From the IMG/VR virus record IMGVR_UViG_3300036814_000177, positions 1 to 59,332 of that record: a stretch of 59,332 nt of DNA. The stretch is one strand, 5' to 3'. Below the pieces are notes generated by a model that was not told the DNA's origin, did no database searches, and saw only the letters and a list, made by a program, of their open reading frames with translations. Shown here piece by piece: positions 12,522-20,097 of this stretch (position 1 is its first letter; every line of letters starts with the position of its first letter). The position numbers and the translations under genes are program-made. The stretch is from a virus (lineage: Duplodnaviria; Caudoviricetes).

Positions 12522-12711
12522 TATCGTTCTCCCTGCTTTCAATTATGTCGTCGTTGATACGAAGGATAAGGCCAGCGAAAAACTCTCTGTCCATGTGGAC
12601 AATGAGCGTCTCCAGTAGCTGGCCCTTGTCGAGGTCGTGCATCCGGTCAGTCCACACCTGTATAGCATCAGGGTTGGTCTTTTTAACGAAGTCAAATTCT
12701 TCTTGTGTCAT
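12508..12711 (-). CDS. Hypothetical protein
   Basis: GGGAGG RBS and overlap coupling. Confidence 0.6.
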   Translation of the reverse strand: MTQEEFDFVKKTNPDAIQVWTDRMHDLDKGQLLETLIVHMDREFFAGLILRINDDIIESRENDNDKS

Positions 12712-13571
12712 GTTAGTCCTCCCATAAATACAGCCATCTTATCCATGATGGCCTTGGCTTCATCAGCCGTGTCTTGCCTGAGAACAGGATCATTCCTTAA
12801 ACTCTCAGGGTGGTGGTTCACTAGCTTCTGTTGCATCTCACTACGCAACTGCTCAAGGTTGGGATCGTCGGTGAAGTTCAGCCTAGTCAGCAACTCACAA
12901 GTGTCTTGAGCATCCTTGTAAGTGCCATCGCGGAACTCGTTCTGAGGGTCGGCCAGTCTACCCTGCAACCAGCTAACCTTATCGTACAGCCGTTGCCAAA
13001 CATCTTGCACAGCGGCTTGGTTCGCCTCCTTGAGCCTGTCCTCCATGTCACTCTCAATGGAGGCCAACTCAGCATCGGCAAGCTCTACACGGAAGTCACC
13101 AGTGGTAGGCACAGGCAGTACCGCTATGTCCATCTTGAACAGCTTCCTAAGATGGGGTATGCCGGGGTATTCCTTGGGGTTGAACAGTTCATGCTCACCA
13201 CTGTTAAGGATACGCTCAGCATCCAGCTTGGCTTGTGGGTACACATCAATGAAGTTCTCAACCAGCCCCATCCATGTGTTCCGTCTGCTACGGAAGTCAT
13301 TCATGTACGTCAGGTAGTTGCTTGAGGGCAGGATAAACGTACCGTCAATACCCCACGGCAGGGTGTTCAGATAGAACCCCTTCCTCACGTCGGTGGTGTC
13401 CTTGTGGACGATCCCCAACTCGTTGCAGGTAGGCAACAGGGTCTTGTTGAAGTTCCCTTTGTTGCCTTCCCCGTTCTCAGACACGATGGCCGAAGCCCTC
13501 CTGTCCAGTTTCCTTGCTGTCCACTGGCTTACGCTAAAGTGGACAAGTAGTGCCTTGTCACTTAGGTGCAT
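12708..13571 (-). CDS. DUF3150-like protein associated with the AAA/VWA module
   Basis: VSQWTARKLD, TLPW and LNFTDDPNLE; helical; lies between the AAA and VWA genes; TAGGAG RBS. Confidence 0.6.
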   Translation of the reverse strand: MHLSDKALLVHFSVSQWTARKLDRRASAIVSENGEGNKGNFNKTLLPTCNELGIVHKDTTDVRKGFYLNTLPWGIDGTFILPSSNYLTYMNDFRSRRNTWMGLVENFIDVYPQAKLDAERILNSGEHELFNPKEYPGIPHLRKLFKMDIAVLPVPTTGDFRVELADAELASIESDMEDRLKEANQAAVQDVWQRLYDKVSWLQGRLADPQNEFRDGTYKDAQDTCELLTRLNFTDDPNLEQLRSEMQQKLVNHHPESLRNDPVLRQDTADEAKAIMDKMAVFMGGLT

Positions 13572-13834
13572 TACATTTCTCCTAGAATTTTACGCTTGGT
13601 TTTCTCCACCACATTGTTGTCGTGGAGAACGTCATAAAACAAACTCATCCTCAGCTTCACTCTACACACAGCAACAAGTTGTGGATCACGCTTCTCAACC
13701 TGTTCCACAAACTTCTTACCGCTGTATGCATCGAGGTATCTGTCCTCCCCGTACCCTGCGGCATCCTTAACCGCACAGTACAGGTCGAACTCATCACCCG
13801 AACACTTGGACCAGCCTCTTGATCGCCCTACCAC
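13571..13834 (-). CDS. Hypothetical protein
   Basis: Fills the gap between the AAA and DUF3150-like genes, with overlaps. Confidence 0.5.
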   Translation of the reverse strand: MVGRSRGWSKCSGDEFDLYCAVKDAAGYGEDRYLDAYSGKKFVEQVEKRDPQLVAVCRVKLRMSLFYDVLHDNNVVEKTKRKILGEM

Positions 13835-14811
13835 AGTACGTCTTGGTTGGCTAAGGCCCAGTCCTTGAACGCTTGTGTTGAGGCCAGTGACTCATCCCGG
13901 CGACAGGCATAGGACACCATCAATGCTCCAAACTCTTGAGGCATCCGGTTAGCAAACACGATGGCCTTGGCAAACGAGGCGTTCTTAACCCTGTGAGCAA
14001 TGGCTCCGGTGATGGCATACAGCGTGGCAGGGTCTTCCGGTACAGTCGCCTTCTCAGGGTTCATCAACAGGTTGTCAATATCCGGCAAGTTACGCTCAAT
14101 CTTGCGGAAGCCCACAAACTCAGCCGCCGCACCCTCACCAATGGCTCCCTTGAAGCACTCGTACTCAGCCTCAACGGACACAACGTCGATCAGGTCACTA
14201 ACACCCTCGACCCAGCTACGACAGGTCGGGTTAGCACTACGCTGAGGGTCGTAGTCCTGCATCAGACCGGGACGAAAGCGGCAAAAGGTTATCACACTGG
14301 GGTTAACATCAGTGTCCACCCAGTAGCGAGTGGTCACATCAAGGTTCACCTCATACTCAAGCTCGGTGTACCTGTTGCTGAGGTGTCCCAACATCCTGTT
14401 GACGCCAGCCCTGTCCTCCTGCCTGTTGCCAGTAGCTATGACTTGCACATTGGCAGGCAAGGCGTGTCCATGTAGCTCCCGCTGTTGGATGATGTTGGCA
14501 ATCACCTTCTGGATATCAGCAGGACACTGACCCAGATCATCGAAGCAGATGATGGCTCTGCTCTCAGGGTCGGTAGGCCACCAATGCGGCATCTTGTAGC
14601 CGAACTTGTCGTCGTCCACGGTAATCATCGGCATCCCGAAGTCCTCCGTCAGACAGGTTGCGGCATGGACATGGATGTACTCCCTGCCCTGCTGTTCTGC
14701 ACCCTGTTCCACAACGCTGGTCTTGCCGCAACCGGGCTGACCAGTGATGTACACGGCCCTGTTGATCGTACCAAGGTTGACGAGTTCTCTAAGTATCTGT
14801 TCACTATGCAT
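13828..14811 (-). CDS. MoxR/AAA_5-like AAA+ ATPase
   Basis: Walker A GQPGCGKT, Walker B ICFDD, sensor ATGN, LSNR and TCRSW, with a TAGGAG RBS. Confidence 0.9.
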   Translation of the reverse strand: MHSEQILRELVNLGTINRAVYITGQPGCGKTSVVEQGAEQQGREYIHVHAATCLTEDFGMPMITVDDDKFGYKMPHWWPTDPESRAIICFDDLGQCPADIQKVIANIIQQRELHGHALPANVQVIATGNRQEDRAGVNRMLGHLSNRYTELEYEVNLDVTTRYWVDTDVNPSVITFCRFRPGLMQDYDPQRSANPTCRSWVEGVSDLIDVVSVEAEYECFKGAIGEGAAAEFVGFRKIERNLPDIDNLLMNPEKATVPEDPATLYAITGAIAHRVKNASFAKAIVFANRMPQEFGALMVSYACRRDESLASTQAFKDWALANQDVLW

Positions 14812-14828
14812 CGCAATCTCCTAGTAAG

Positions 14829-14905
14829 CTATCTGGCTCATCAGTGCAGGGTGATAATGCCCCACAGACCGGACGGCTAATCCGGTTTCGCCTTTCTCCT
14901 AGCCG
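14829..14905 (-). ncRNA. Type II hammerhead ribozyme
   Basis: Minus-strand RNA reads GGC-GAAA-CCGGA-uuagccg-UCCGG-UC^UGUGGGG-cauuauca-CCCUGCA-CUGAUGA-GCC. It has the complete core (CUGAUGA, GAAA, GUC), three stems and two pseudoknots. Predicted cleavage is between 14867 and 14866. Confidence 0.92.
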
Positions 14906-14921
14906 CTTTAGGCTCTCTGCA

Positions 14922-15224
14922 TCACAGCGTCACCTTGCCGCTGACTAACAGCTTGTGTGCTTGGCTCCAGCCGTAGTCGGTGTCGGCTAACTGCTCAATC
15001 TCTTGGAACAGGCTCACTGTCTGGAACTTGACAGTGTATTTGCTGTCATGGTGTTCCTCTTGTGTGGCAATATCCATCTCAGTAACTCTCGAACCCTTAC
15101 GAAAGCAGGGTGCATCACTGGTAACAACCTTGAATGTGTATCCAAGGTCGTATTCACGTTTAGTGTCGTTCTCGACGGTGGCTCCGTCCTCTGGGATGAG
15201 TTTGATGTTATATCTATGGGTCAT
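14922..15224 (-). CDS. Hypothetical protein
   Basis: CTAGGAG RBS; first gene after the 15284-15312 promoter. Confidence 0.75.
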   Translation of the reverse strand: MTHRYNIKLIPEDGATVENDTKREYDLGYTFKVVTSDAPCFRKGSRVTEMDIATQEEHHDSKYTVKFQTVSLFQEIEQLADTDYGWSQAHKLLVSGKVTL

Positions 15225-15283
15225 TTGGTAGCTCCTAGTTAGTTGGTGAAAAGTTTTGGGATTTGGTCGCTGGTCGAGCCGGG

Positions 15284-15312
15284 ACTATGCAATTTCCGGC
15301 GAAAATTGTCAA
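15284..15312 (-). promoter_or_regulatory. Sigma70-type early promoter
   Basis: TTGACA-N17-CATAGT on the minus strand, upstream of 15224. Confidence 0.75.
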
Positions 15313-15339
15313 GTTTGCTGGGCTGGGTATGAGGGGTGT

Positions 15340-15850
15340 AAGTTTGAGGGTATTAATTATCTGTTCTTCTATCTGTACTATCTGTTGGGGTGCTTAACTT
15401 GACGCTTCAACAGCTAGTATACAATTGTTTAATACCAATGGGTTAGGGGGTGCAGTATATAGATTATATAGATTATCCGTGTTTTGAAACTAATCAGTGC
15501 CACAATTTCATACATGTTTGTTGATGCCAAATTCGTAAAGTTATGATTTGGTAAAATTTGTGTGTGACTTTATCTATTTGAACAGATAACTTAGATAATT
15601 GATATAAAAGATTACTACCTAAACCCAGTTAATCCATGGTCAGTACCAAACTTGACAGTTAAAGTGTTAAGTTAAAACACCCCCTCCCCAACAGATATTA
15701 CAGATAGTTGGCCGTAAAGTATCCTCCAACCTGTTGTAATATAACAAACTTATACATCTACTACTACCTACCGATTAATGGTTCAGGTCTATTACCAATG
15801 CCTTATCGACCCTCTTTAATGGCGCACTCTGACCTACCGATGAATGGTTC
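15340..15850. other. AT-rich non-coding region with iterated TATCTGT/ACAGATA; candidate replication origin
   Basis: TATCTGT at 15358, 15370 and 15379. Inverted ACAGATA at 15582, 15691 and 15700. A 19-bp repeat at 15766/15832. No credible ORF. Confidence 0.45.
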
Positions 15851-15856
15851 TATAAT

Positions 15857-15895
15857 AAAAAGAAAAGAAAGAAGAGGAGAGGCTTGCGCCCCTCC
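15857..15895 (-). terminator. Intrinsic terminator
   Basis: GGAGGGGC-GCAA-GCCTCTCC hairpin followed by a U-rich tract (TCTTCTTTCTTTTCTTTTT). Confidence 0.7.
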
Positions 15896-15901
15896 AATCC
15901 T

Positions 15902-15997
15902 TCAGATGCGGTGCCAGTAGAACACCCAGTCTCCGTCTTTCCGGCACTTCCACAAGGTGTGGCCGGTGGGCAGCCTGCACACGAGGAGCCTACTCAC
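15902..15997 (-). CDS. Small hypothetical protein (31 aa)
   Basis: GTGA overlap with the upstream stop and a GAGG RBS. Sequence MSRLLVCRLPTGHTLWKCRKDGDWVFYWHRI. Confidence 0.45.
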   Translation of the reverse strand: MSRLLVCRLPTGHTLWKCRKDGDWVFYWHRI

Positions 15998-16173
15998 TTG
16001 GCCACCTCGAGCTTGGTGCGGAGGGTGATGAGGGTGCTGATGTAAGCCTGCATCTCCCGTTTGAAGTCTTCGGAGCAATTCTCCTCAGCTTCGGTTTCTG
16101 CATCGGCGATCTCGCCGACAATGGTGTCGATGAGCAAGCAGCGCTCAATACTGTCTAGGTCTATGTGTGCCAT
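15994..16173 (-). CDS. Small acidic helical protein (59 aa)
   Basis: TAGGAGGT RBS. Sequence MAHIDLDSIERCLLIDTIVGEIADAETEAEENCSEDFKREMQAYISTLITLRTKLEVAK. Confidence 0.75.
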   Translation of the reverse strand: MAHIDLDSIERCLLIDTIVGEIADAETEAEENCSEDFKREMQAYISTLITLRTKLEVAK

Positions 16174-16233
16174 GACGGCGCACCTCCTATGTAGGGGGGA
16201 GCCGAAGCTCCCCCCAGTGTGATAGGTATGAAC

Positions 16234-16413
16234 CTACATCTGTTCGGGAGGCATTACACCATCGAACTGTAAGTCCATAATACGCTCGCCTGCACGGCGC
16301 AGGGACTCGAGCAGGTTGAAGCGTGTCCGTGCCTCAACCCAGTCGGGTCTATCGAACGTCTCAACGACGTCCTGTCGGGCGTCGAGGTCGTAGTATAAGA
16401 TACGAAATGCCAC
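16234..16413 (-). CDS. Small hypothetical protein (59 aa)
   Basis: AAAGGAG RBS and GTG start. Sequence MAFRILYYDLDARQDVVETFDRPDWVEARTRF... Confidence 0.7.
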   Translation of the reverse strand: MAFRILYYDLDARQDVVETFDRPDWVEARTRFNLLESLRRAGERIMDLQFDGVMPPEQM

Positions 16414-16428
16414 TGCATTTCTCCTTTG

Positions 16429-16465
16429 AAAAAGGTTCCCCGGAGCGTTCTAGCTCCGGGGTTCC
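16429..16465 (-). terminator. Intrinsic terminator after the first early gene
   Basis: CCCCGGAGC-tagaac-GCTCCGGGG stem followed by TTTTT. Confidence 0.7.
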
Positions 16466-16475
16466 AGTTTAGTCC

Positions 16476-16895
16476 CTAGCCGACTACCTTCATGAAGGCC
16501 GCGAGTGCCGCGTCTTCACCCTTGTTGACAGGCCTTGGAGCCGCCTTAGGCTTCGCGCCTTCAACCGGTCGAACACCGATTGAGACGTTGCCACGCTTCG
16601 ACAACCAGCACTCGAGGCCAGCCGCTTCCGCCGTGGTCACCATGGCCAAGACTTCAGCCGGTGTCCGAGACACGAACTCGTGTTCGTCACCAACGAAGCA
16701 AGGGCTTCCGGGGTAAACCGGCAGCTTCAATTTGGTGGCGTAGGCTACCAGCCCACGTACCGCTGCGAAGCCTTCCTCACTCGTCTCGATTGGGACGCCT
16801 TGCTTTGCGACAGTTAACCGGGCCGAGCTTGCTCCCATCAACGTACCAGTTTTTGAGGCCGGATTGTGGATGGTCGTGTGAGGTTTAATAAACAT
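16476..16895 (-). CDS. First early gene, hypothetical protein
   Basis: 139 aa with an AAAGGA RBS, followed by a terminator. Confidence 0.8.
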   Translation of the reverse strand: MFIKPHTTIHNPASKTGTLMGASSARLTVAKQGVPIETSEEGFAAVRGLVAYATKLKLPVYPGSPCFVGDEHEFVSRTPAEVLAMVTTAEAAGLECWLSKRGNVSIGVRPVEGAKPKAAPRPVNKGEDAALAAFMKVVG

Positions 16896-17120
16896 ATTGA
16901 AATGTCCTTTCAGGGACTAAGGCCGTACCGCCGCCGCAATCGGAGGCGGCTTAGGCCTAATCTTTTCTTTCGCGCCCTAAACCAGTGTCTTGCGGGGCAA
17001 GGAAGTCTGCCGTTAGGCCTAGATTACTTCCGACCGTAGTTTTCTAAGGGTCAGCGTCTACCGGGGAAGGCTCGCCTTCTTGAAGTTCCCGTCTCTCCGC
17101 GGTGTGTGGTCCGTTTCGAT
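16896..17120 (-). ncRNA. Structured 5' leader RNA (candidate)
   Basis: About 225 nt without an ORF between the promoter and the ATG. Several complementary stems are visible by eye. Confidence 0.5.
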
Positions 17121-18449: not shown

Positions 18450-18582
18450 GACATTCGCAGAGGCGCAGGTGTTCACTGCACAACTTGTTGAAGCGGGGGT
18501 TTCATTCACGACGAAGATTGTTACATTCCGCAAGCGGCTCAGAAAGCCGATGGAGATACAGGTGAAGATGTATGGCGTATGA
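18436..18582 (+). CDS. Small basic protein (48 aa)
   Basis: MRVFKTFAEAQVFTAQLVEAGVSFTTKIV... bridges terS and terL with overlaps. Confidence 0.5.
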   Translation: MRVFKTFAEAQVFTAQLVEAGVSFTTKIVTFRKRLRKPMEIQVKMYGV

Positions 18583-19965: not shown

Positions 19966-19994
19966 TTGCGTTGTCTCACCGTGTCCCATATAGT
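19966..19994 (+). promoter_or_regulatory. Sigma70-type promoter of the sRNA
   Basis: TTGCGT-N17-TATAGT. Confidence 0.7.
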
Positions 19995-19999
19995 TCGCA

Positions 20000-20094
20000 T
20001 TGGTCGGACATGACCTCGGTTGAGTTTTCCTCCCTGTCAACTCGCCTCCTAGTAAACTTCCCCCAGCGGACTCCTAGCCGCTGGGGGGTTTTTT
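20000..20094 (+). ncRNA. Candidate ~95-nt sRNA with three anti-SD motifs
   Basis: Has its own promoter, two hairpins and an intrinsic terminator. CCUCCC, CCUCCUAG and ACUCCUAG lie in unpaired regions. Confidence 0.65.
20060..20094 (+). terminator. Intrinsic terminator
   Basis: CCCCCAGCGG-actcctag-CCGCTGGGGG followed by TTTTTT. Confidence 0.85.
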
Positions 20095-20097
20095 CTA

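What the first reader, a model, noticed from the sequence alone, without database searches (positions are those of the whole stretch)
14829..14905. Double-pseudoknotted type II hammerhead ribozyme inside the early operon, 55 nt upstream of the AAA ATPase start
Seen: the minus strand carries the full hammerhead core (GAAA 14889-14886, GUC ending at 14867, CUGAUGA 14844-14838). Stem III is ACCGGA/UCCGGU, stem I is UGUGGGG/CCCUGCA and the open stem II is GGC/GCC. Loop III UUAGCCG can pair with upstream CGGCUAG (14905-14899), and loop I UUAUC can pair with downstream GAUAG (14833-14829). Established: pseudoknotted type II hammerheads occur in bacteria and phages, and cleavage leaves a 5'-OH. Inference: it cuts the polycistronic early mRNA and gives the AAA/VWA module a 5'-OH end next to its RBS. 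This would change mRNA stability or translation independently of the first gene.
Basis: partly seen in the sequence, partly recalled or inferred. Interest (0 to 1): 0.85.

Follow-up and report, generated by a model that had tools for sequence, protein, structure and literature searches.

The report
Type II hammerhead ribozyme before phage ATPase
A genuine self-cleaving hammerhead RNA sits just ahead of an ATPase gene in a marine phage genome, an ordinary example of a known arrangement, and the proposed extra second pseudoknot is probably a chance match.

Summary
The minus strand at 14893-14827 matches Rfam Hammerhead_II (RF02276) at 40.3 bits, above the curated cut-off of 37. It is the only Rfam family over its cut-off in this 59,332-b marine phage record. 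A covariance model built only from 14 hammerheads of related phages finds the same site (32.5 bits, E 1.8e-6; next best 11.9 bits).

The loop I/3'-tail pseudoknot is the canonical type II contact. It covaries with the closest relative, L105 (UUAUC:GAUAG versus UUGUC:GACAA).

The second pseudoknot (loop III with 14905-14899) is not supported:
- A 7-bp match arises by chance in about 4% of controls.
- It is not enriched among 183 phage type II hammerheads.
- It is absent from L105, whose loop III is a 4-nt GAGG loop.

The ribozyme lies between a non-conserved 100-aa ORF and a MoxR-like AAA ATPase gene. Cleavage would leave a 55-nt leader. Hammerheads between phage genes, and the idea that they process polycistronic mRNA, were described by Perreault et al. 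2011 (PMC3088659). Cleavage here is inferred, since no RNA data exist. Verdict: a new member of a known kind, of low to moderate interest.

The parts
14827..14893 (-). Type II hammerhead ribozyme (whole Rfam match, including the 3' tail)
   Evidence: RF02276 at 40.3 bits, cut-off 37. An independent model R1 gives 32.5 bits, E 1.8e-6.
14866..14867 (-). Predicted cleavage site: after C17 (14867), before U1.1 (14866)
   Evidence: Position of GUC relative to the core in the sequence and in the Rfam alignment. Cleavage itself has not been shown.
14890..14892 (-). Stem II 5' strand GGC, followed by core GAAA (14889-14886)
   Evidence: It pairs with GCC 14837-14835. Relatives have GUC/GAC and L105 has GCC/GGC, which is compensatory.
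14868..14886 (-). Stem III hairpin ACCGGA-UUAGCCG-UCCGGU
   Evidence: it forms in the minimum-free-energy fold.
14845..14866 (-). Stem I hairpin UGUGGGG-CAUUAUCA-CCCUGCA
14835..14844 (-). Core CUGAUGA (14844-14838) and stem II 3' strand GCC (14837-14835)
14829..14833 (-). 3' tail strand GAUAG of the canonical pseudoknot with loop I UUAUC (14857-14853)
   Evidence: 5 bp starting one nucleotide after stem II. Among hammerheads with at least 5 bp, the tail strand starts 0 or 1 nt after stem II in 88 of 95. It covaries with L105.
14899..14905 (-). CGGCUAG, complementary to loop III. The proposed second pseudoknot strand is probably fortuitous.
   Evidence: Chance rate about 4%. Not conserved.
14809..14822 (-). 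Shine-Dalgarno AGGAG (14822-14818) and ATG (14811-14809) of the AAA ATPase gene
13828..14811 (-). MoxR-like AAA+ ATPase gene (327 aa) downstream of the ribozyme
   Evidence: Pfam AAA_5, E 1.2e-7. PHROG 1297 ATPase, E 9.9e-66.
14922..15224 (-). Upstream 100-aa ORF with no family match and no homologue in the related loci

Best explanation
This is a functional type II hammerhead self-cleaving ribozyme. It is transcribed as part of the minus-strand mRNA that runs from the 100-aa ORF into the MoxR-like AAA ATPase gene. It folds into stems I and III (hairpins) and a 3-bp open stem II. A 5-bp pseudoknot between loop I and the tail just 3' of stem II holds stems I and II side by side. The RNA then cleaves itself after C14867.

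Cleavage splits the message in two. The upstream piece ends in the stem III hairpin with a 2',3'-cyclic phosphate. The downstream piece begins with a 5'-OH at the first base of the stem I hairpin and carries a fixed 55-nt leader with the AGGAG ribosome-binding site and the ATPase gene.

The likely consequence (inferred) is that the ATPase module's mRNA gets a defined, structured 5' end. That end would not depend on whatever variable gene lies upstream, which uncouples its stability from the upstream cistron.

The folding and membership are shown by sequence and comparison. Cleavage and its effect on expression are inferred.
For: Membership and fold:
- RF02276 scores 40.3 bits, above the cut-off of 37.
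- Model R1, built without the window, finds only this site.
- All core positions are intact.
- On 16 distinct hammerheads of this phage group, 97.9% of cells pair and 16 of 24 pairs show compensatory changes. No shuffle of 500 reached the observed covariation score.

Conserved placement:
- A same-strand hammerhead ends within 100 nt of the AAA start in 7 of 23 IMG/VR relatives that have enough upstream sequence.
- The same holds in 6 of 31 metagenome loci, several of which duplicate the IMG/VR ones.
- This includes L105, the closest relative (AAA 64% identical). There stem II is GCC/GGC and the pseudoknot is UUGUC:GACAA, against GGC/GCC and UUAUC:GAUAG here.
- The Rfam scan reports one hammerhead in each of two complete related genomes (G001, G002), and it is the one before the AAA gene.
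- The gene upstream of the ribozyme is not conserved.

General architecture:
- Of 177 distinct phage type II hammerheads, 140 have an SD plus start codon within 60 nt downstream, against 40 of 177 for the upstream control.
- The modal distance from stem II to the start codon is 20-29 nt. Here it is 23 nt.
- No locus carries hammerheads on both strands.

Literature:
- Type II hammerheads with this pseudoknot, clustered between prophage genes and cleaving in vitro and in vivo, are described in PMC3088659 (passages).
- Three type II hammerheads of Desulfovibrio vulgaris were shown to be active by end capture (PMC8782182; abstract and passages).
Against: - There are no RNA data for this phage, so transcription across the site and cleavage are unshown (one search listed no RNA holder).
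- The window's pseudoknot is AU-rich and weak: duplex energy is -1.2 kcal/mol, against -5.8 for the relatives' UGGCU:AGCCA.
- A 5-bp match of loop I to a random 10-nt stretch occurs in about 10% of trials. The pseudoknot therefore rests on its register and on covariation with L105, not on its own statistics.
- Nested-fold modelling does not predict a more open RBS after cleavage: P(unpaired) of the SD is 0.50-0.51 in precursors and 0.17 in the 3' product.
- The minimum-free-energy fold pairs the CUGAUGA core with downstream GCUUACUAG instead of forming stem II.
- 16 of 23 IMG/VR relatives have no hammerhead directly before the AAA gene, so it is dispensable at this junction.
Confidence: 0.85

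Rival explanations
1. Double-pseudoknotted variant. The hammerhead carries a second tertiary helix between loop III (14880-14874) and the upstream strand CGGCUAG (14905-14899). This helix either braces the fold or acts as a co-transcriptional trap or switch that tunes cleavage.
For: - The 7-bp complementarity is real and strong as a duplex (-8.9 kcal/mol).
- As a hairpin it is isoenergetic with stem III (-8.1 versus -7.9 kcal/mol), so it could compete with or add to the fold.
- Among hammerheads with short loops III, only one other case (L094) reaches 7 bp.
Against: - The chance rate is about 4% (4.3% of 20,000 shuffles; 4.0% of 11,859 genomic windows; 4 of 182 foreign upstream flanks).
- There is no enrichment of loop III/upstream pairing over swapped controls in 183 hammerheads: 36 reach 6 bp or more, against about 30 expected.
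- The hammerhead at the same junction in the closest relative, L105, has a 4-nt GAGG loop III and no such partner. None of the other AAA-linked relatives has one either.
- Geometry (inference): stems II and III stack end to end, so the 6-nt linker GAGAAA would have to span the whole length of the ribozyme.
- The passages read from PMC3088659 describe no such contact.
Confidence: 0.08
2. Decayed or inactive hammerhead-like remnant. The sequence keeps the consensus but no longer cleaves at a useful rate, because the stem I/II tertiary contact is too weak, and it has no present function.
For: - The pseudoknot energy is only -1.2 kcal/mol.
- Stem I contains tandem G-U pairs.
- The score is only 3.3 bits over the Rfam cut-off and far below the relatives on model R1 (32.5 versus 72.7-89.3 bits).
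- PMC3088659 notes that some candidates were inactive in its assays (passage).
Against: - Every invariant core nucleotide is intact, and all three stems and the pseudoknot register are kept despite heavy sequence divergence from relatives. That is the signature of selection on the fold.
- The sequence is identical in contigs of four further public DNA runs from different studies, although these do not sample divergence.
Confidence: 0.07

Closest known systems
Type II hammerhead ribozymes of bacteria, prophages and metagenomes (Rfam RF02276; Perreault et al. 2011, PMC3088659)
   Same: - Same permuted architecture: open stem II, with hairpins on stems I and III.
- Same invariant core.
- Same pseudoknot between loop I and the nucleotides just 3' of stem II.
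- Same placement between genes of phage origin on the coding strand.
- The score is over the family cut-off.
   Different: - The pseudoknot sequence is UUAUC:GAUAG instead of the common UGGY:RCCA type.
- Stem I is shorter (7 bp) and has an 8-nt loop.
- There is one copy in the genome rather than a cluster.
HHphage of haloviruses HF1/HF2 (discussed in PMC3088659)
   Same: [quoted passage not shown] The mapped transcript 5' end lies near the cleavage site (passage read).
   Different: In the paper that element is a core-variant hammerhead of archaeal viruses. Here the core is canonical, the host is unknown, and no 5'-end mapping exists.
Active type II hammerheads of Desulfovibrio vulgaris next to phage-derived genes (cyPhyRNA-seq, PMC8782182)
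   Same: Same ribozyme type, next to genes of bacteriophage origin. Their 2',3'-cyclic phosphate and 5'-OH products were captured in vivo.
   Different: Those are chromosomal loci with experimental proof. This one is in a free phage genome and has none.
Synthetic ribozyme insulators placed before an RBS (RiboJ-type parts). Recalled from memory, not from any call.
   Same: It works alike in principle. A hammerhead directly upstream of the RBS cuts away variable upstream RNA and leaves a fixed, hairpin-capped leader.
   Different: Those are engineered type III satellite-RNA-derived ribozymes. This is a functional analogy only, not a family relationship.

Membership tests
Hammerhead ribozyme, type II (RF02276) | Invariant catalytic core: CUGAUGA, GAAA, and a U-H cleavage dinucleotide with A15.1-U16.1 | tested here: met
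   CUGAUGA 14844-14838, GAAA 14889-14886, GUC 14869-14867, and G10.1-C11.1 closing stem II.
Hammerhead ribozyme, type II (RF02276) | Three stems around the core, with stems I and III closed by loops and stem II open | tested here: met
   Stem I is 7 bp, stem III is 6-7 bp and stem II is 3 bp and open. The stems covary across 16 distinct relatives.
Hammerhead ribozyme, type II (RF02276) | Score at or above Rfam's curated gathering cut-off | tested here: met
   40.3 bits against a cut-off of 37.
Hammerhead ribozyme, type II (RF02276) | Pseudoknot of 4 or more bp between loop I and the nucleotides immediately 3' of stem II. This is seen in the majority of members, not all (PMC3088659). | tested here: met
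   UUAUC:GAUAG, 5 bp, starting 1 nt after stem II. L105 has UUGUC:GACAA at the same place, with an A:U to G:C change. Within the relatives, one pseudoknot column pair reads C:G in 9 and U:A in 6.
Hammerhead ribozyme, type II (RF02276) | Site-specific self-cleavage giving 2',3'-cyclic phosphate and 5'-OH ends | not testable with these tools
   No RNA run is listed for this DNA. An in vitro transcription assay or end-capture sequencing is needed.
Hypothetical 'double-pseudoknotted' hammerhead subclass | Conserved or covarying pairing of loop III with a flanking strand | tested here: not met
   There is no enrichment over swapped controls in 183 hammerheads. The chance rate is about 4%. The pairing is absent from L105 and the other AAA-linked relatives.

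The most novel reading that the evidence does not exclude
The loop III/upstream helix is real and makes this a switchable hammerhead. The upstream strand CGGCUAG is transcribed first and is as stable a partner for loop III as stem III is for itself. It would capture the nascent RNA and gate or time self-cleavage, perhaps in response to ribosomes finishing the upstream ORF or to a trans-acting RNA that shares the CUCCUAGCCGCU 12-mer at 20071-20082. The ATPase module's mRNA would then be released only under certain conditions. More broadly, hammerhead-plus-RBS units in this marine phage group may act as portable 5'-leader cassettes that move between gene junctions.
Probability: 0.07. Interest if true: 0.6.

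Novelty: new member of a known kind. Interest (0 to 1): 0.25.

Why it matters
The biological role of hammerheads between bacterial and phage genes is still unsettled. A 2019 review says that additional work is needed to define their purpose (PMC6765202, passage read).

This locus adds a clean, simple case. The Rfam scan reports a single hammerhead in each of three complete phage genomes (the window, G001 and G002), and each one sits directly before the same MoxR-like ATPase gene, while the upstream gene varies. If a host were found, such a one-ribozyme phage would be a convenient system to test whether cleavage sets mRNA stability or translation of the downstream module.

As a discovery, however, it is an expected hit of a curated Rfam model in a setting already described in 2011.

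Tried and rejected
1. RNA evidence. The look-up of sequencing runs listed no RNA holder. All 22 listed rows are DNA metagenome runs, marine, seawater or freshwater by label.

2. Natural variants. Contigs of four DNA runs (X3, X6, X8, X10) laid on 14500-15250 show no differing letters. They therefore give no micro-covariation test of either pseudoknot.

3. Other ribozymes in the window. A permissive Rfam scan (E up to 1) gave only the hammerhead plus four sub-threshold hits elsewhere. Model R1 with filters off gave no second hammerhead.

4. Near-identical phages. Megablast of 12700-16900 against 50,697 phage records found no match. Cultured phages match only at the protein level: under 60% for the AAA gene, with the listed hits at 25-31%, and TerL best at 43% to Pseudomonas phage Rollin.

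5. The idea that cleavage opens the RBS. Partition-function modelling gave the opposite trend. I dropped this as a claimed mechanism. The model ignores pseudoknots and kinetics.

6. MAFFT alignment A1 misaligned the window's stem I. I replaced it with a model-based alignment, A3. In A3 the window's loop I falls in insert columns, so its pseudoknot was compared with L105 by eye and in A4. In A4 the third row (L105_up) is out of register, so A4 was not counted.

7. Homology of flanking genes. The 100-aa ORF has no tblastn hit (E up to 1) in loci L002-L104. Three genes upstream of L007's AAA gene have no hit better than E 0.88 in the window.

8. The 12-mer shared by 14896-14907 and 20071-20082 is real. 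However, 51% of 129-nt windows of this genome contain a 12-mer repeated elsewhere on the same strand. CGGCTAGGAG with up to 1 mismatch occurs 3 times against 3.4 expected. This is not evidence for a circuit.

9. The promoter and terminator scan is uninformative overall: 4 promoter-like sites against 4.3 expected.

10. Supplementary files of the papers (for example Dataset S1 and Figure S4 of PMC3088659) were not seen. They may already list close relatives of this hammerhead.

Limits of my own counts:
- The 183 or 177 hammerheads come from a regex parser of my own. It was run on loci that were fetched either through the AAA protein or through a pattern requiring GGC/GCC stem II, so they are not an unbiased sample.
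- Parses with loop III longer than 30 nt or with short flanks were dropped for the 177 (6 dropped).

Full report
**What the window is.** The window is a complete IMG/VR virus record of 59,332 b, which CheckV rates 100% complete. Public runs that hold it are labelled marine, seawater or freshwater metagenomes. Genes run on the minus strand up to about 18.5 kb, and a large terminase starts the plus-strand block at 18572. No cultured phage is close. Megablast found no match, and the best protein identities are 43% for TerL and 25-31% among the listed hits for the AAA ATPase.

**The observation.**
- stem II GGC 14892-14890 / GCC 14837-14835
- GAAA 14889-14886
- stem III ACCGGA / UCCGGU with loop UUAGCCG
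- GUC ending at 14867
- stem I UGUGGGG / CCCUGCA with loop CAUUAUCA
- CUGAUGA 14844-14838

Rfam's Hammerhead_II model (RF02276) matches 14893-14827 end to end at 40.3 bits, with a curated cut-off of 37 and E 8.9e-5 for the whole window against 4227 families. It is the only family over its cut-off. A permissive scan adds no other ribozyme.

As an independent check I built a covariance model (R1) from 14 hammerheads of related phages, leaving the window out. With filters off it finds this one site at 32.5 bits (E 1.8e-6). The next best of 17 listed is 11.9 bits.

**Surroundings.** The ribozyme lies in the 110-nt gap between a 100-aa ORF (15224-14922) and a 327-aa MoxR-like AAA+ ATPase gene (14811-13828).
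- The 100-aa ORF has no Pfam or PHROG match.
- The ATPase gene matches Pfam AAA_5 and PHROG 1297.
- Small ORFs follow the ATPase gene, then a DUF2201 metallopeptidase/VWA-like protein (12542-11340) and an Nmad5-like protein.
- The AGGAG ribosome-binding site is at 14822-14818 and the ATG at 14811-14809. The ribozyme's stem II ends 23 nt before the start codon.
- A sigma-70-like match (TTGACA-17-CATAGT, 15312-15284, minus strand) lies just upstream of the 100-aa ORF. However, the scan found no more such sites than shuffles do. 'First gene of the operon' and 'early' therefore remain inferences.

**Relatives.** The AAA protein retrieved 24 IMG/VR loci at 49-58% identity and 35 metagenome loci. 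Several metagenome loci duplicate IMG/VR ones, and the closest with upstream sequence is L105 at 64%.

Rfam and my own parser find type II hammerheads on the gene strand in many of these loci:
- 15 of 24 IMG/VR loci carry at least one, and none has one on the opposite strand.
- A hammerhead ends within 100 nt of the AAA start in 7 of the 23 IMG/VR loci with enough upstream sequence. These are L002, L007, L012, L013, L014, L015 and L025, making five distinct sequences.
- The same holds in 6 of 31 metagenome loci: L105, L111, L112, L117, L119 and L137.
- In the other loci the hammerheads sit at junctions further upstream, or just downstream of the AAA gene.
- The Rfam scan reports one hammerhead in each of two complete related genomes (G001, 58.8 kb; G002, 57.7 kb). 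In each it is the one in front of the AAA gene.
- The gene upstream of the ribozyme is not conserved. The window's 100-aa ORF has no homologue in the loci then held (L002-L104), and three genes upstream of L007's AAA gene have none in the window. L105's upstream ORFs also found nothing in the window at E 1e-3.

**Covariation.** On the model-based alignment of 20 hits (16 distinct), 97.9% of cells form standard pairs. Sixteen of 24 pairs show changes on both sides. No shuffle of 500 reaches the observed covariation score, and sliding the partners drops pairing to 31-42%.

The window itself differs from the relatives compensatorily:
- Stem II is GGC/GCC here, GUC/GAC in most relatives and GCC/GGC in L105.
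- Stems I and III are different sequences that still pair.

**First pseudoknot.** Perreault et al. [quoted passage not shown]
- Among 183 distinct phage hammerheads parsed here, 95 have 5 bp or more, against about 42 in tail-swapped controls. The tail strand starts 0 or 1 nt after stem II in 88 of those 95.
- The window has UUAUC:GAUAG (5 bp, one G-U) starting 1 nt after stem II.
- L105's hammerhead at the same junction has UUGUC:GACAA, an A:U to G:C exchange at the centre.
- Within the relatives, one pseudoknot column pair reads C:G in nine sequences and U:A in six.
- On its own the window's helix is weak (-1.2 kcal/mol). A 5-bp match to a random 10-mer occurs in about 10% of trials. The support is therefore comparative.

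**Second pseudoknot.** The 7-bp complementarity between loop III and CGGCUAG (14905-14899) exists and would be stable (-8.9 kcal/mol as a duplex). The evidence against it as a feature is as follows:
- Such a run appears in 4.3% of shuffles of the same upstream stretch, in 4.0% of 37-nt windows of this strand, and in 4 of 182 foreign upstream flanks.
- Loop III/upstream pairing is not enriched over swapped controls in the 183 hammerheads.
- L105 has a 4-nt GAGG loop III with no such partner.
- None of the other AAA-linked relatives shows it.

I therefore rate 'double-pseudoknotted' as unsupported and give it about 8%.

The shared 12-mer is real, but half of all 129-nt windows of this genome contain such a repeat.

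**Mechanism.** Shown: the sequence fits the family, and the fold is under selection. Inferred from established hammerhead chemistry and the cited papers: co-transcriptional cleavage after C14867 splits the mRNA.
- The upstream fragment ends in the stem III hairpin with a 2',3'-cyclic phosphate.
- The downstream fragment starts with a 5'-OH directly at the stem I hairpin and carries the RBS and the ATPase module.

The general layout supports a role tied to the downstream gene. Of 177 phage hammerheads, 140 are followed by an SD plus start codon within 60 nt (control 40 of 177), most often 20-29 nt after stem II.

A defined, hairpin-capped 5'-OH leader that does not depend on the variable upstream gene is the most economical reading. 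It is the hypothesis already in print (PMC3088659; PMC6765202).

My thermodynamic model gives no support to the narrower idea that cleavage unmasks the RBS. No RNA data could be found, and four DNA runs show no variants.

**Verdict.** This is a real type II hammerhead of the known phage-intergenic kind. Novelty: new member of a known kind. Interest: 0.25.

Noticed in passing
L105:449-503 and L105:1409-1467: The closest relative has two hammerheads about 900 nt apart. The upstream one, not the AAA-linked one, has a 3' tail plus RBS almost identical to the window's (AGACAGCUUACUAGGAGA versus AGAUAGCUUACUAGGAGA). This suggests that hammerhead-plus-leader units are duplicated or exchanged between gene junctions.
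   Followed up: partly
L085, L039, L048, L104 (IMG/VR loci from the pattern search): Some unrelated phage contigs carry arrays of 7 to 10 type II hammerheads, one before nearly every gene and all on the gene strand.
   Followed up: partly
window 19990-20095 (+): A short unit ends in a strong terminator hairpin (CCCCCAGCGG...CCGCUGGGGG followed by a U run). It gave sub-threshold Rfam hits to ctRNA_p42d, NsiR1 and anti-hemB. It shares a 12-mer with 14896-14907, which is not statistically unusual.
   Followed up: partly
L004:1627-2091, and upstream of the AAA gene in L008-L011: Relatives encode Gly/Tyr/Asp-rich low-complexity repeats (GGCTACGGCGAC units) just upstream of the AAA gene or of a hammerhead.
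   Followed up: no
L020:4384-4445 and L128:1205-1263, 2911-2972: These hammerheads have A or U instead of C at the cleavage position 17 (GUA, GUU). Both are allowed by the H17 rule, but they are variants among near-identical copies.
   Followed up: no
window 14824-14817 and 14902-14895 (minus strand): The 8-mer CUAGGAGA occurs twice within 85 nt. One copy is the AAA gene's RBS. The other lies upstream of the ribozyme, overlaps the proposed second pseudoknot strand, and has no start codon after it.
   Followed up: partly
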